A stretch of DNA of 63,492 nt, filler included, from Kipferlia bialata (Eukaryota), in assembly GCA_003568945.1 (NCBI GenBank). It is 4 parts of 4 records of this genome, joined end to end, with 100 filler letters (N's around TTAATTAATTAA, not from the genome) between each part and the next. Parts side by side here need not be neighbours in the genome. Positions count along the whole stretch, not along the records: positions 1 to 19,637 come from BDIP01000411.1; positions 19,738 to 39,371 come from BDIP01000412.1; positions 39,472 to 59,101 come from BDIP01000413.1; 1 more part is not named here. The stretch is one strand, 5' to 3'. The position numbers were made by a program, and so were the translations under genes. The notes beneath the pieces were generated by a model. It worked only from the letters and a program-made list of their open reading frames with translations. It was not told the DNA's origin and ran no database searches. Positions within the stretch are counted from its first letter, which is position 1. The number at the start of each line of letters is the position of its first letter. This document shows positions 13,930 through 59,101 of this stretch, piece by piece.

Positions 13930-14220
13930 CATATATAGCCCCTTTACCTTCTAGCTCCTTGGCCGCACTGTCCGTGTCTCCTCTGCCTCTGTCTTTTTTT
14001 CTCTCTCTCTCTCTATATATATAGTATGTACCTATATACTCACCCCTAGCTCCTTGGCCGAACTCTCTCTCTATATATATATATAAATATGCATATCCCC
14101 CTCACCCCCAGCTCCTGGGTAGGACTGTGCGTGTCTCCTCTGGCACCCATATATATATATTTATATATACATGTATATATAGATATGCATATACCCCCCC
14201 CCCCCCTTCCCTCATCCGAG

Positions 14221-14384
14221 CTCTTGGGCAGGACTGTCCGTGTCTCCTCTGGCACCAGGGCACCCATCCTCAGTGACGAGAGGTTCATGGTCAAGGTATA
14301 GATAGATATTCTTTTGTTTGTATCATTATTCCTCATTCTTGCTCCCACCTCCATCCCCCAGCTTACCCCAGACCAACACCCTTA

Positions 14385-14415
<31 letters not shown>

Positions 14416-14626
14416 CCTCTCTCTCCCCCCCTACTCACCCCAGACCAACACCCTTGCTGTCGAGCTGAGCTACCACTTCAGCTGCATGATACAGACACTG
14501 CAGACAGTGGCAGGTAATGTGTATATATATACTGTATATGTACTGTATATATGTAGAGAGAGAGAGAGAGAGAGAGATGATACAGACACTGCAGACAGTG
14601 GCAGGTATTGAATATATATATATATT

Positions 14627-14662
<36 letters not shown>

Positions 14663-15274
14663 TATGATACAGACACTCCAGACAGTGGCAGGTGGGAAAG
14701 TGAACATATATGTTTTGATCTCTCTCTCTCTCTCTCTCTCTCTCTCCCCCCTTCTCACCCCCAGCCGATCTCATTGACAGTGCCCTTGACATTGTTGTAC
14801 TCTCTCTCTCTCTATATATATATATGTGTGTGTGTGTATGTTCACCTGATATATATGTGTGTATATATATCATCCTTCTCACCCCCAGCCGATCTCATTG
14901 ACATTGCCCTGGACATTGTTGTGCTGCTGGTCGGGGTGTCGGCACCTGCCGCTATGAGGGTGTGTGATACATACATCTATATGCATAGTATGTATATGTA
15001 TACTATACTTGTATAGTATGTATAGTTGAGTGTTCTGCTGGTCGGGGTGTCGGCACCTGCCGCAATGCGGGTAAGTCACATATATATCTATATGCACATA
15101 TAATTATGGACCAATGAGGGTACGGAATACTCCGCTTATTACGACACATTTCTTCAGGCCCCAGTGTTTATGTGCTCTTGACTCAACCTTCCTCCTTCTC
15201 TATCTCTCTCTATCTCCACAAACTCTCTCTCCTTCATCCCCAGGTCATCCGTTCTCTACTCTCTGACGACCCCT

Positions 15275-55210: not shown

Positions 55211-55264
55211 TAGACCTCACCATGTAGATAAGATGTGAAGTATACATGGGATGAATATGTAGTG

Positions 55265-55851
55265 CTACACTAGCTGTGATACACAAGACTCCAAACAGAG
55301 TCCGCTTGAGTCGGACACTTGTAGCAAGAGATCATGAGTCACAGTATGACTGATGAGAACTAACGCACTCCTTCTTGGTTCGTCATTACTGAGACTATGC
55401 GAGTTAGACCGTATGATGTTATTAAAATGATGAATCCTAAAAATTGATGAATATTTGAGTTGGTTTGATTCACCCACAAGCCTTTTCCATCACTCACATA
55501 GTCAGTCAAGAGAGCGTTTACTGACTCCCACAAGCACCTGTATGCAGTCCCTGGCTCTGTGGGGATGTGCTGTGCTATGTTGGTGTGTGTGTGTGATGTG
55601 CGAGACATCGGAAAGGTATGATGCACACTCTTAGTGTCATACCTGTCTATCTATATCGGTGTGGTCATTGCTATTCAATGCATACATATCTTGCTATGAG
55701 TGTGTATTGGTGGGCTTTTAGTAGTACTGCGGCTGTAGTGGTTCTCCGAGTGAGCCCTTGTATGAGTTGTTCTCTCTCGATAGAAGTGAGGCGTTTCGAT
55801 GAATGGACTTGATAGGACCTTCTACAGTATATAGCCATGATATAGACTGGT
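55265..55851 (-). CDS. Probable 3' exons of a hypothetical gene (5' end absent)
   Basis: Acceptor-flanked minus-strand segments encode PGTAYRCLWESVNALLTDYVSDGKGL and LSNDEPRRSALVLISHTVTHDLLLQVSDSSGLCLESCVSQLV*. Another acceptor (ctgactag) lies at about 55852. Exon phases are not fully resolved. Confidence 0.35.
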
Positions 55852-56035
55852 ACTAGTCAGAGCCTACATCCCTCAGTAGTAAGGGGATACTCTCATCCTC
55901 TATAACCCTCCCCCCCCCCTCCCCCTCCCCCCCTCCCCCCCCCCCCCCCCCCCCCCACCTGCCTTCCACTGTTAGTATTACCTCTCTATTGTTCCAGGAC
56001 TTACCTCACACACTCTCTCCCTCTCTAACACCTAG

Positions 56036-58984
56036 CTAAGAGAGTTCAACAACTGGGTCAAGGCTGTGCTGATCAGTCACTTTGGGGTGTCCAACAATGC
56101 AGCTCTGGATCTGTGCGGAGGTATATACATTTGTATATAGTGTGATCAATCCCCCTATAGGTATAATATACAAGTGTTCAATCACCCTATTACGAAGCAC
56201 ACTCTCCTCTCTTTGTAATTCTTCTCCTTCTTTATTTATCTCCAGGCAAGTTTGGAGACCTGGCCAAGTACATTCATACTCACTAGTTGTACTGACATAT
56301 CATATCACGTCATATCTCTTTTCTTCTTACCTATATTCATATTTAGGCAAGTTTGGAGACCTGGCCAAGTACATGCAGCTCAATGCATCCTATGTGGCTG
56401 TGTGTGACATTGCCCTGTTCTCACTAAGAGAGGGCATCCTTAGGTACATATGGCTTGGTTATAACTGTACACTTTTTCCCCCGGATGCAACAAGATCCTC
56501 ACCATATATATATTTATATATATATATGTGTGTGTGTGTCGATAGTAGCCTATGTATTTAGTGTGGTATTTACCCCAGATACAACAAGACCCTGGTCAAG
56601 CTGGGCTCAGATGCAGCATTCAACCTGGAGCAGGCCGGCAAGGTAAGACTGATGTAACCATATATATATATATATATATAGTTATATATATGAGAGTACT
56701 ATATATATATATTCATAAATCATTCAACCTGGAGCAGGCCGGCAAGGTAGGACATGTTTCAAGAGTATACTAATTGGAAAGTACTCTCATCTCTGACCTC
56801 CAGGAGGTCAATGACGAGTCCATTCTGTCCAGGATCAGTGAGCAGGCACCAGTAGTGGACTACATATGGGTATGACATTAATGTATATGTATATATAGTA
56901 TGTCACAGCATACGTCTCATCATTGGAACACCTTGGCGGATGTTTCCTCTACAGGAATCTATTCTCTCTCTCTATATATATATAACCAGTGTATACAGTG
57001 ACTCATATTACTCACTTAAGAGCGACTGTTTCCTACTCTGGCTGGCTCTCTCTGTCTCCATTGATGCTTTCATTACTGTCAGTATGTCTTACCCTAGGGC
57101 GGCTGTTTCCTGCACAAGCTGCGTGACCACTTCAAGCAGCAGTCACTCCCTCTCTCATTCTATGTATATATATGTGTGTGTGTGCTATTACTCACTGTAG
57201 GGCGACTGTTTCCTGCACAAGCTGCGTGACCACTTCAAGCAGCAGGGCGCCTCCTTCCCCTTTGTGTCATGCCAGTTCGCCATGCACTATGCATTCGAGA
57301 CAGAGGAGGTATGAATTATAGATATATATAGAGTATACCCATTTAGTATATGCATGTGAGTACTCCTCCTTTGTGTCATGCCAGTTCGCCATGCACTATG
57401 CGTTCGAGACCTAGGAGGTACTAATACATACATTGGTATATATATATATATGAATTTATGTGTTGATCAGTATATTCCTGTTCGCTATGCACTATGCATT
57501 CGAGGCAGAGAAGGTTTCAAGTATTGTGTGTATTGTATGGTCAATGATTGACCCCAGCGAGCCAAGATGTTCTTCCACAATGTTGGGTCTCTGTTGAAGC
57601 CCAAGCACCACTTTGTGGCCACCCTGCCCAACAAGAGGACAATCCTGGATAGGTGTGTATGTATATAGGTGTGTTTTATACTATACATATATATATATAC
57701 AATTATAGTATATCACTTCGTGGCCACCCTGCCCAACAAGAGGACCATTATGGATAGGTACGTGAATACAAGTATTTGTGTTTCTGTCTGTTCTCTCTTT
57801 GAATATTCCTAACCCCAGGCTAGCTGCCACCAACTGGGAGCAATAATGAATTGAAATATTGTGTGTATATATGTGTTTATATGGATACCTTCATGTACCA
57901 CTGACCCCAGGCTGGCTGCCACCAACTGGGAGTACAGCCCTGAGCAGCCAACTCCCCCTAGGCTAGGGAATGAGGTAATGCATAGTTGTGAGTGTATATG
58001 GACTAGTTCTCAACTGTAAATTACTTCCACATTTGTGTATATATACTTACTTCAGTATATACTCACCCCCAGGCCTACCACATCCAGTTCGATGCCCTGT
58101 CTGGCCCAGCCGACCAGATACCAGAGTTCGGGGCAAGGTACGGATATCTGTGATGCTTGCATACACCAATATGTATTTCTATACATGCATCTCACCCTAG
58201 GTACACCTTCTTCCTGGCCGATGCTGTGGATGGTGTGCCCGAGTACCTGGTGGACATTGACACGATGCGCAGACTGGCAGGAGAGGCAGGTTAGTCATTG
58301 ATGAGCCTTCTATCTCTTCTACTATAACCTATATTGTTTAGAAGATTGAGATAGGTACCCTCACCCCAGGCATGGAGCTTGTCCTGGCCGTGCCCTTTGA
58401 CAAGTTCCACGATGAGTTTGCAGAGCCACACTCTAGGTATATATATATATATATGTATGTGTGTATGTGTGTGGAGAGAGAGATTGACTTGTACAATATG
58501 TATTAGAATAGTAATAGTAGACCTATATTCTGGTATCCCTCACCCTCTAGGCAGTACCGCCCCTCCCACCAGTCCCACTTCTCTTGTGAGAATAGTATAC
58601 TATACTGTATGATTCATATATACATTTATATACCCCTATACACCCCTTTCACCACAGGCAGTACCGCCCCTCCCACCAGTCCCACTATGAGAAGAGGGGG
58701 CTCAAGCCATTCAGCCAGATTTTGCAGGTACAGCAGACATCAATCTATCTGTCGTCCCACTCTTTTCACCTATGACCGTACTCTCTTGATCTATATCTAT
58801 GTATGTTATAGTATACACTCACACCAGGACTCCCCCGACCAGGCCTCTGTCATATTCTCTCTCCCCCTCAATATATGTATACTGCATTCACTTACACTAG
58901 GACTCTCCCGACCAGGCCTCTGTCATATCCCTGTACCACGCAGTCATCTTTGTCAAGAAGGGGGCAGTCAGCCAATTCTCGCAG
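56036..58984 (+). CDS. RNMT: mRNA cap guanine-N7 methyltransferase (RNMT/Abd1), both ends partial
   Basis: The spliced translation reads LREFNNWVKAVLI...ALDLCGGKFGDLAKY...CDIA...GDCF...VSCQFAMHYAFETEERAKMFFHNVGSLLKPKHHFVATLPN...FGARYTFFLADAVDGVPEYLV...LYHAVIFVKK. Confidence 0.95.
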
Positions 58985-59101
58985 GTGATGATTATACATT
59001 GCATAGGGTTATACTATATATGTACATTAGTATATATATATATATATACCACGCAGTCATCTTTGTCAAGAAGGGGGCAGTGTCACAGTTCAGTCAGGTG
59101 A

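What the first reader, a model, noticed from the sequence alone, without database searches (positions are those of the whole stretch)
13955..59097. Intronic exon echoes are synonymously recoded, as if they were under protein-level selection
Partial exon copies inside introns differ from the real exon mostly at silent positions. (1) RNMT exon end 58934-58984 GTC AGC CAA TTC TCG CAG versus echo 59047-59097 GTG TCA CAG TTC AGT CAG; both read VSQFSQ, with two AGY/TCN serine swaps. (2) 29827 ATC AGC GTC TCT CTT CGT GAT GCC GGC CCC versus echo 29729 ATC AGT GTG TCT CTG AGG GAT GCC GGC CCA (ISVSLRDAGP). (3) 21794 versus 21908: GCA>GCC, CAA>CAG, AGG>AGA. (4) 14921 versus 15032: GTG>GTT, GCT>GCA, AGG>CGG. 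(5) LLGRT at 14221 (CTC TTG GGC AGG ACT) is echoed as CTC CTG GGT AGG ACT (14112), CTC CTT GGC CGC ACT (13955) and CTC CTT GGC CGA ACT (14050). The echoes near 26380, 28292 and 28565 behave the same way. A neutral copy compared with a constrained exon should show fewer than half silent differences, yet many echoes here are all or nearly all silent. Some do carry missense or nonsense changes (for example GAG>TAG near 57411). Inference: echoes feed back into coding sequence, either by frequent gene conversion or deletion between echo and exon, or by an RNA-level mechanism that swaps exon ends. I know of no described system like this.
Basis: partly seen in the sequence, partly recalled or inferred. 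Interest (0 to 1): 0.92.

Follow-up and report, generated by a model that had tools for sequence, protein, structure and literature searches.

The report
Fossil alleles stranded in protist introns
Introns of the free-living protist Kipferlia bialata hold many short, unused copies of exon ends that differ from the working exon mostly at silent positions, likely because they are leftovers of other, very divergent alleles, which would be indirect evidence of genetic exchange in a group where sex has not been seen.

Summary
The window is Kipferlia bialata DNA. I counted 85 echoes at 66 splice junctions. Each copies one splice site plus about 30 nt of exon, in units of about 104 nt. Exon-head echoes lie upstream, exon-tail echoes downstream. 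Silent sites differ at 0.20, non-silent at 0.038 (ratio 0.19, CI 0.13-0.25). Silent changes make up 65%, against 32-41% in a simulated dead-copy null. Splice signals show the same pattern: AG/GT bases changed 4%, permitted -3/+3 swaps 27%. The echoes look dead now: missense changes are spectrum-neutral, stops occur, and an RNA-type contig skips them. DNA contigs span exon plus echo at even depth. Exchange with diverged alleles reproduces it (0.15-0.24). Best reading (0.65): echoes are junctions that worked on other alleles of a hyperdiverse, recombining population. No second isolate was available to show this directly. The scan noted similar echoes before in a sea urchin, at null level (unchecked).

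The parts
55960..59101 (+). mRNA cap guanine-N7 methyltransferase (RNMT) gene, 12 exons 56036-58984, with 12 counted echoes (junction positions 56246, 56485, 56746, 57021, 57098, 57417, 57513, 57757, 57819, 58551, 58828, 59097)
   Evidence: Pfam PF03291; my model is identical to residues 18-335 of P0002 = GIQ81508.1 K. bialata; echoes; 12 silent: 8 non-silent codons
59047..59097 (+). Exon-tail echo of RNMT exon 58901-58984: the break-side part is identical, the last six codons are recoded (4 silent, two of them serine family swaps), GT intact, follows an (AT)n run
57368..57417 (+). Exon-tail echo of RNMT exon 57201-57308 with 2 silent changes and a stop codon
19998..33530 (+). Gene B, 48 exons in one open frame, function unknown; 41 counted echoes, 69 silent : 29 non-silent codons
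   Evidence: the exons of 20569-22919 are joined by RNA-type contig 9
20867..21218 (+). Three exon-head echoes (20867, 20955, 21053) before the working exon 21140-21218. All 6 differences are silent. The non-adjacent copy 20955 shares the exon's intron flank; the adjacent one does not. The working acceptor is AAG, the three skipped ones YAG.
   Evidence: the RNA-type contig joins 20623 to 21139
21908..21947 (+). Exon-tail echo of exon 21781-21833, 3 silent changes
   Evidence: exon and echo lie in one 804-nt DNA contig with 0 other letters
29646..29911 (+). Exon-head echoes at 29646 (4 silent, 1 missense, AG lost) and 29729 (4 silent) before exon 29827-29911; three states at one valine codon
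32052..32499 (+). Exon 32052-32144 followed by three exon-tail echoes ending 32266, 32385, 32499
13955..16423 (+). Gene A fragment, 6 exons 14221-16423; 11 counted echoes (13955, 14112, 14372, 14604, 14691, 14765, 15070, 15244, 15582, 15712, 16126), 21 silent : 3 non-silent
11667..13777 (-). Gene M1, 8 exons; 7 counted echoes (13582, 13502, 13168, 12951, 12851, 12499, 12235), 5 silent : 1 non-silent; two more (12394, 12295) dropped as misaligned
8098..11081 (-). Gene M0, 6 exons modelled; 6 echoes (10736, 10601, 10060, 8623, 8528, 8289), 7 silent : 8 non-silent
61342..62844 (-). Gene E, 6 exons; tail echo ending 62626 and four head echoes (61771, 61707, 61616, 61528) before the last exon 61444-61342. 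Non-adjacent copies 61771 and 61616 share a Tyr-Arg haplotype; the others read Tyr-Lys.
59284..60062 (-). Gene F fragment, 4 exons; echoes 59552 and 59284
42188..55206 (.). Contrast region: gene D (- strand, 35 exons) with no echo and gene C (+ strand, 10 exons) with one doubtful hit; median intron lengths 70 and 81 nt

Best explanation
The echoes are unused partial duplicates of one splice junction, and they likely carry the sequence of other, strongly diverged alleles in which that junction once worked, so their silent excess would be inherited allelic diversity. Steps: (1) A break or template switch, often at a (CT)n or (AT)n tract, leaves a unit of intron end + AG + exon head, or exon tail + GT + intron start, next to the working junction (structure shown; cause inferred). 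(2) Only duplicates with one splice site persist; the spliceosome takes the AG-GT pair closest across the exon (skipping shown for one RNA-type contig; rule inferred). (3) Either the duplicate is copied from a homologous chromosome at birth (one-ended homologous repair closed by end-joining), or it is born identical and later crossovers put another allele's exon or junction beside it (inferred; the two routes are not separated). (4) The echo then decays neutrally, about 4% so far at non-silent and AG/GT sites (shown). The remaining silent divergence, about 0.15-0.19, would equal silent diversity among K. bialata alleles (inferred).
For: pN/pS 0.19, CI 0.13-0.25, never reaching 0.5 in 5000 bootstraps over junctions; one echo per junction gives 0.18-0.22. 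Differences by codon position 4.4/3.7/16.2%; only 16 of 139 silent base changes are CpG-type; the expected fraction stays at or below 0.48 for kappa up to 10. Splice signals are recoded the same way: invariant AG/GT bases changed 7 of 170; -3 C<>T 12 vs 2 to purine; +3 A<>G 8 vs 2 to pyrimidine; the branch pentamer differs yet is still YTNAC in 22 of 44; other intronic AGs have the motif in 21 of 712. Changes private to one echo are 25 silent: 15 non-silent (P=1e-6 vs 0.26, 0.007 vs 0.42); three codon states occur at single sites; non-adjacent copies can be closest. Strict polarity, 96 vs 0, fits duplicates truncated at birth, so the two versions cannot both have worked on one chromosome. Toy model: allele exchange gives pS 0.18-0.27, pN 0.04, ratio 0.15-0.24 at pi_S 0.14-0.20; no exchange gives 0.56. 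Silent changes thin out toward the break (104:40 vs 25:21, P=0.03). Such diversity exists in Schizophyllum (0.13-0.20; PMC4576712 abstract), where crossovers favour exons (PMC4209137 abstract). Metamonads lack NHEJ and rely on HR and alternative end-joining (PMC8516963 section 8).
Against: No allele was seen directly: only two runs of one sample hold the stretch, their contigs list no other letters, and the 90% cluster of the RNMT protein has one member, so the donors must be historical. Sex has not been observed in Metamonada (PMC8516963 passage). Intron flanks have diverged far more than silent sites (only 27 of 87 flanks beat the 95th percentile of unrelated junctions) and flank similarity does not correlate with pS (rho 0.04); this needs extra slippage or exon-biased exchange. 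RNMT, the only independently annotated gene, gives only 12:8 (pS 0.12, pN 0.044), and M0 gives 7:8; the signal rests mostly on genes A and B, whose frames come from my own models. Two adjacent three-base serine swaps remain hard to reach by point mutation. The positional gradient is modest and could be an edge effect. The narrow spacer size (median 71 nt, equal to an ordinary intron) is not explained by route 3b. The toy model is small (N=300) and not fitted.
Confidence: 0.65

Rival explanations
1. Error-prone birth with a survival filter: each duplication re-synthesises the copy that has to keep working, with many errors, and only events whose errors are silent or splice-compatible survive; the old copy stays as the echo. 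No second allele is needed.
For: Explains the silent excess, scrambled flanks, permitted splice-site swaps and echo-echo differences together; breaks sit at microsatellites (27 of 50 head echoes are followed by (CT)n); alternative end-joining is called highly mutagenic in PMC8516963 section 8.
Against: Needs about 15% errors per base over 30-100 nt, far above the repair error rates I recall (not from a call). The silent spectrum is nearly symmetric (GC>AT 64 vs AT>GC 45, P=0.08). Shared haplotypes in non-adjacent copies fit recurring donors better.
Confidence: 0.1
2. One reading: frequent conversion or deletion between echo and exon exposes the echo to indirect selection against missense changes.
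For: Direct repeats 100 nt apart should recombine (established knowledge); 14 of 88 echoes are identical to the exon, several with unrelated flanks.
Against: In the toy model conversion gave ratios of 0.60-0.75 even at N*c=5 and erased silent differences too. The missense spectrum and stop count look unselected.
Confidence: 0.07
3. Donors were a second gene copy (hybrid subgenome or paralogue), since lost or too diverged, rather than ordinary alleles.
For: The genome holds a second RNMT at 84% identity, GIQ85879.1, for a gene I recall as usually single-copy.
Against: At 15 residues where the two RNMTs differ inside echoes, the echo matches its own gene 13 times, the paralogue 0 times, neither 2 times. 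Three states at single codons need more than two haplotypes or repeated change.
Confidence: 0.08
4. RNA-level use: echoes are spliced into some transcripts, or exon ends are swapped in the RNA, so they are under current protein selection.
For: Echo splice sites are mostly intact (AG 44 of 50, GT 34 of 35). Contigs cannot show rare isoforms.
Against: RNA-type contig 9 matches the exons with 0 other letters and skips the echoes it crosses. No tail echo has an acceptor at its break (0 of 35); 7 of 50 head echoes have a GTR nearby. Echo heads start with GT in 6 of 50, so recursive splicing is not general. Stops and broken sites occur.
Confidence: 0.04
5. Ordinary dead copies beside constrained exons, the excess coming from detection bias, or an assembly of mixed haplotypes.
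For: An earlier, unchecked note explains sea-urchin echoes this way (43 of 107 silent). The 8 weak hits that I dropped may be richer in non-silent changes. The DNA run may be the source of the assembly.
Against: The simulated null with the same trimming never exceeded 0.56, against 0.68 observed at codon level (129:61). Single DNA contigs of 804 and 1440 nt span exons and echoes with no other letters at depth 450-510. Stops and lost AG/GT would not occur in working haplotypes.
Confidence: 0.04

Closest known systems
Junction-spanning tandem repeats with silent pseudo-splice sites: human F7 IVS7 37-bp VNTR (PMC1557585, abstract read); internal tandem repeats at exon-intron boundaries (PMC2812944, section 6 read)
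   Same: The unit crosses one exon-intron boundary; extra splice sites look functional but are not used; the first donor is chosen.
   Different: F7 pseudo-sites are identical in sequence at a single locus. Here 66 junctions in 8 gene models are affected, on both donor and acceptor sides, units are about 104 nt, flanks are mostly unalignable and exon parts are silently recoded.
Hypervariable species with exon-focused crossing-over, Schizophyllum commune (PMC4576712, PMC4209137; abstracts read)
   Same: Silent diversity of 0.13-0.20 matches the value inferred here; exons are the alignable part in which exchange occurs.
   Different: There it was measured across isolates; here it is inferred from relics in one genome. 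The abstracts mention no intronic relics.
One-sided invasion / synthesis-dependent repair closed by end-joining (search listing only; mechanism recalled)
   Same: One end is a templated copy, the other an illegitimate junction with little homology.
   Different: Known from induced breaks and gene targeting; here it would be a frequent natural source of intron structure. Not shown.
Internal gene duplication and intron gain by tandem duplication (Rogers model; Gao and Lynch 2009, paper not held, recalled)
   Same: Short intragenic duplication leaves exon-like sequence in an intron.
   Different: The echoes sit inside existing introns and create none; only one candidate of the intron-creating type was seen (1715-1882).
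Silent-cassette gene conversion (Borrelia vls, trypanosome VSG; recalled)
   Same: Unexpressed partial copies lie near an expressed gene.
   Different: Those store amino-acid variation; here the stored variation is silent, the genes include a housekeeping enzyme, and the copies decay.

Membership tests
Junction-spanning tandem repeats (F7 IVS7 type) | Repeat unit crosses an exon-intron boundary and carries a consensus splice site | tested here: met
   96 correctly oriented hits; AG kept in 44 of 50, GT in 34 of 35
Junction-spanning tandem repeats (F7 IVS7 type) | Pseudo-sites stay unused in the mRNA | tested here: met
   One RNA-type contig skips 5 echoes at listed joins and 3 more judged from depth bins, of the 8 counted echoes between 20566 and 22919; the rest were not covered; rare use not testable
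Junction-spanning tandem repeats (F7 IVS7 type) | Units near-identical in sequence | tested here: not met
   pS 0.20; 60 of 87 flanks no more alike than the top 5% of unrelated junctions
Junction-spanning tandem repeats (F7 IVS7 type) | Copy number varies between individuals | not testable with these tools
   Only one sample holds the stretch
Mutually exclusive tandem exons | Each copy has both an acceptor and a donor and covers the whole exon | tested here: not met
   Median 29 nt of exon; 0 of 35 tail echoes with branch+YAG at the break, 7 of 50 head echoes with GTR nearby
Intron gain by tandem duplication (Rogers) | A duplicated AG|GT supplies both ends of a new intron | tested here: not met
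   Echoes lie inside introns; exon heads with an echo start GT in 7 of 37 vs 12 of 53 without. One separate candidate at 1715-1882.
Silent-cassette gene conversion | Donor copies are kept intact and store amino-acid variants that enter the expressed gene | tested here: not met
   Differences mostly silent; missense neutral-like; 2 stops; conversion model gives the wrong ratio
One-sided invasion repair products | Insert templated from a homologue at one end, non-homologous junction at the other | tested here: inconclusive
   Breaks abut dinucleotide tracts more than background (40% vs 24%, P=8e-4) with little continuation into the echo (0 nt in 53 of 84); the donor was not observed
Hypervariable recombining species | Silent diversity above 0.1 among isolates, with recombination | not testable with these tools
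   No second isolate found

The most novel reading that the evidence does not exclude
K. bialata routinely repairs breaks in its microsatellite-rich introns by copying the whole intron from a diverged homologous chromosome, using the flanking exons as the only homology. Echoes are the overshoot scars of that intron-swapping route, which explains spacers the size of one intron. Each genome then carries a dated archive of thousands of other alleles, and sex and hyperdiversity in a metamonad can be read from a single assembly.
Probability: 0.2. Interest if true: 0.82.

Novelty: new variant of a known kind. Interest (0 to 1): 0.62.

Why it matters
[quoted passage not shown] If the echoes are relics of other alleles, one genome records both very high silent diversity (about 0.15-0.19) and exchange between homologous chromosomes, which makes the question testable with a second isolate. 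The two clocks, neutral decay near 4% against inherited silent divergence, give a way to estimate population diversity from single assemblies of poorly sampled protists. The arrays also show a reduced spliceosome (87 of 174 proteins; PMC6679479 passage) skipping consensus acceptors for a weaker downstream one, and they account for much of the intron length in these genes (about 100 nt per echo).

Tried and rejected
No whole genome is held, so the count is limited to the window. Reads could be laid only on 19760-25230, and both runs are contigs; the RNMT echoes have no read evidence. No listed holder is on record as RNA; X2 is guessed to be RNA and its contig joins exons. Protein searches with single exons of genes B and D found nothing (weak), and one with 37369-38595 found only a distant unnamed protein. 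The metagenome scan with RNMT found no relative. Pfam named only RNMT exons and one weak PapD-like hit among 19 pieces. Rejected: CpG or transition bias; the 84% paralogue as donor for RNMT; recursive splicing; read-length artefact behind the 104-nt unit (long unbranched contigs at even depth); adaptive recoding to escape the echo's splice site (it predicts fast loss of the echo's AG/GT, observed 4%; inference). Literature searches that returned no description of these echoes in the listings; the K. bialata genome paper has 0 occurrences of 'duplicat' in its main text. Supplements were not opened, and subscription papers, including Gao and Lynch 2009, are not held, so absence from print is not established.
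Full report
Source and layout. The window joins four scaffolds with N spacers at 19639-19738, 39372-39471 and 59102-59201. An exon of the cap methyltransferase matched P0002 at 100%, which the sources name GIQ81508.1, Kipferlia bialata, on a 19,630-nt contig. My 12-exon model is identical to residues 18-335 of that protein, so an independent annotation also skips the echoes. K. bialata is a free-living fornicate with 124,912 GT-AG introns in 51 Mb (PMC5874029, section 12 and passages). No whole genome was held.

Gene models and echo scan. 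I built ten gene models with a small gene finder and manual curation. Gene B has 48 exons in one open frame. Each of 142 exons was aligned, anchored at either end, to its two flanking introns with codon-blind scoring. There were 100 hits: 58 copies of an exon head upstream of the exon, 38 copies of an exon tail downstream, 4 wrong-side hits (3 re-finding a tail echo, 1 weak) and no tail copy upstream. Unrelated exon-intron pairs gave 2 hits in 680. This polarity is what a tandem duplication across one splice site gives: the extra copy is truncated from birth. Strict trimming dropped 8 hits; I dropped 3 more as misaligned or doubtful (12394, 12295, 53514), leaving 85 echoes at 66 junctions. Gene D (35 exons) has none and gene C (10 exons) only the doubtful one.

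The silent excess is real. With 88 echoes: 130 silent, 68 missense, 2 nonsense codons, pS 0.197, pN 0.042. With 85: pS 0.200, pN 0.038, ratio 0.19, bootstrap over junctions 0.13-0.25, silent fraction 0.65. A dead copy beside a fully constrained exon predicts a ratio of 0.5 and a fraction of 0.38-0.48 for kappa 1-10. Simulation with the same trimming gave 0.32-0.41, highest run 0.56, against 129:61 observed. Genes differ: A 21:3, B 69:29, E 14:10, RNMT 12:8, M0 7:8, M1 5:1. An earlier scan note on a sea urchin reports 43 of 107 silent, the null level (unchecked), so the value here is unusual and not a by-product of the feature itself.

The echoes are in the DNA and are skipped in the RNA-type contig. 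On 19760-25230, contigs of 613, 804 and 1440 nt span exons and echoes with no other letters at depth 450-510, and no alternative letters are listed. The run may be the source of the assembly, so this excludes mis-joining, not a shared sample history. Contig 9 of the RNA-type run joins 20623 to 21139 and 22250 to 22449, and two unlisted pieces fit exons 21781-21833 and 22627-22670 by length and depth bin; it skips the eight counted echoes between 20566 and 22919. At 21140 the working acceptor is AAG while three upstream YAG copies are ignored. Contigs cannot show rare isoforms.

Two clocks. Sites that only a living junction must keep have changed little and equally: non-silent exon sites 3.8%, AG/GT bases 7 of 170. 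The missense changes are not significantly conservative (P=0.15) and stops are at the random rate. This is neutral decay since death. Sites free to vary in a working junction have changed much more: silent sites 20%; -3 and +3 swaps within the permitted pair 20 of 73, against 4 forbidden changes; branch pentamer different yet still YTNAC in 22 of 44. Flanks are homologous near the site (identity 0.6-0.7 at positions 7-12 before AG, random 0.35) and fade by about 20 nt. So echo and exon diverged mostly while both were working junctions. Echo-private changes are also silent-rich (25:15), and non-adjacent copies can be the closest relatives.

Mechanism. A copy truncated at birth cannot have worked beside the exon, so the two versions most likely worked on different chromosomes (inference). 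A toy Wright-Fisher model gave ratio 0.56 without exchange, 0.60-0.75 with echo-exon conversion, 0.24 with crossover between echo and exon among alleles, and 0.15 when the echo is born from another allele, at silent diversity 0.14-0.20. Corrected distances are dS 0.23 and dN 0.04, leaving 0.15-0.19 as allelic divergence, within the 0.13-0.20 of Schizophyllum (PMC4576712 abstract), where crossovers favour exons (PMC4209137 abstract). Metamonads lack NHEJ, and fornicates lack Rad51A and keep two Dmc1 paralogues (PMC8516963 section 8). Breaks abut dinucleotide tracts more than background; (CT)n follows 27 of 50 head echoes but opens only 4 of 59 ordinary introns. Units have a median of 104 nt and spacers 71 nt, the size of an ordinary intron, which favours copying of a whole intron but could also reflect selection on spacing. 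Silent changes thin toward the break (P=0.03; observed ratio at about the 1st-2.5th percentile of a trimmed-uniform simulation), as crossovers inside the echo would leave.

Against this reading. No allele was observed. Flank divergence exceeds and does not track silent divergence. The best-annotated gene is weak alone. The double serine swap at 59047-59097 is unexplained in detail. A second RNMT at 84% identity exists but is not the donor: echoes match their own gene at 13 of 15 diagnostic residues and the paralogue at none. Error-prone birth with a survival filter remains possible (0.10).

Comparison and verdict. The structure works like the F7 IVS7 pseudo-sites (PMC1557585 abstract) and other boundary repeats (PMC2812944 section 6), but fails their near-identity and is far denser. 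It is not mutually exclusive exons, not intron gain, and not a silent-cassette system. Six searches (listings only) showed no description; supplements and subscription papers were not seen. Verdict: real, robust within this window, a new variant of a known kind, most likely a fossil record of alleles rather than a new RNA or DNA machine. Interest 0.62.

Noticed in passing
window 1690-1900 (+): A 25-nt segment containing AG|GT occurs three times; the first copy gives the exon end and donor (1714), the third the acceptor and next exon start (1883). Splicing them joins two open frames. Candidate intron gained by tandem duplication; no RNA evidence.
   Followed up: partly
RNMT 56036-58984 and protein P0003: K. 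bialata has a second cap methyltransferase, GIQ85879.1, 84% identical over 226 aa. Could point to an old genome duplication or hybrid origin; other genes not tested.
   Followed up: partly
window 21137-21139 and 14218-14220: Working acceptors AAG (used in the RNA-type contig) and GAG (my model only) are preferred over upstream consensus YAG echoes, suggesting choice by nearness across the exon, not by site strength.
   Followed up: partly
window 13880-13930 and 16590-16650: Two genes meet head to head at a microsatellite with neither 5' end, and gene A stops at a (CT)n run: probable assembly mis-joins at microsatellites.
   Followed up: no
window 42188-55206: Genes C and D have short introns (median 81 and 70 nt), longer exons, higher GC and no clear echoes, unlike the AT/CT-repeat-rich genes: two structural regimes in one genome.
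   Followed up: partly
spacers next to echo breaks, whole window: Strand-mirrored repeats: (CT)n 27 and (AG)n 0 after 50 head echoes; (AG)n 5, (AT)n 15 and (CT)n 1 before 35 tail echoes. May reflect what is added to or joined at a broken 3' end.
   Followed up: partly
window 18272-18421 (+): A C2H2 zinc-finger-like fragment (TGEKPF linker, motif recalled; translation) in an otherwise unmodelled region; 17570-17790 and 19380-19620 look like diverged copies of each other by eye.
   Followed up: no
window 5770-6100, 7447-7700, 5379-5501 and 6674-6799 (+): Gene A0 has exon pairs with related peptides, suggesting an older multi-exon internal duplication.
   Followed up: no
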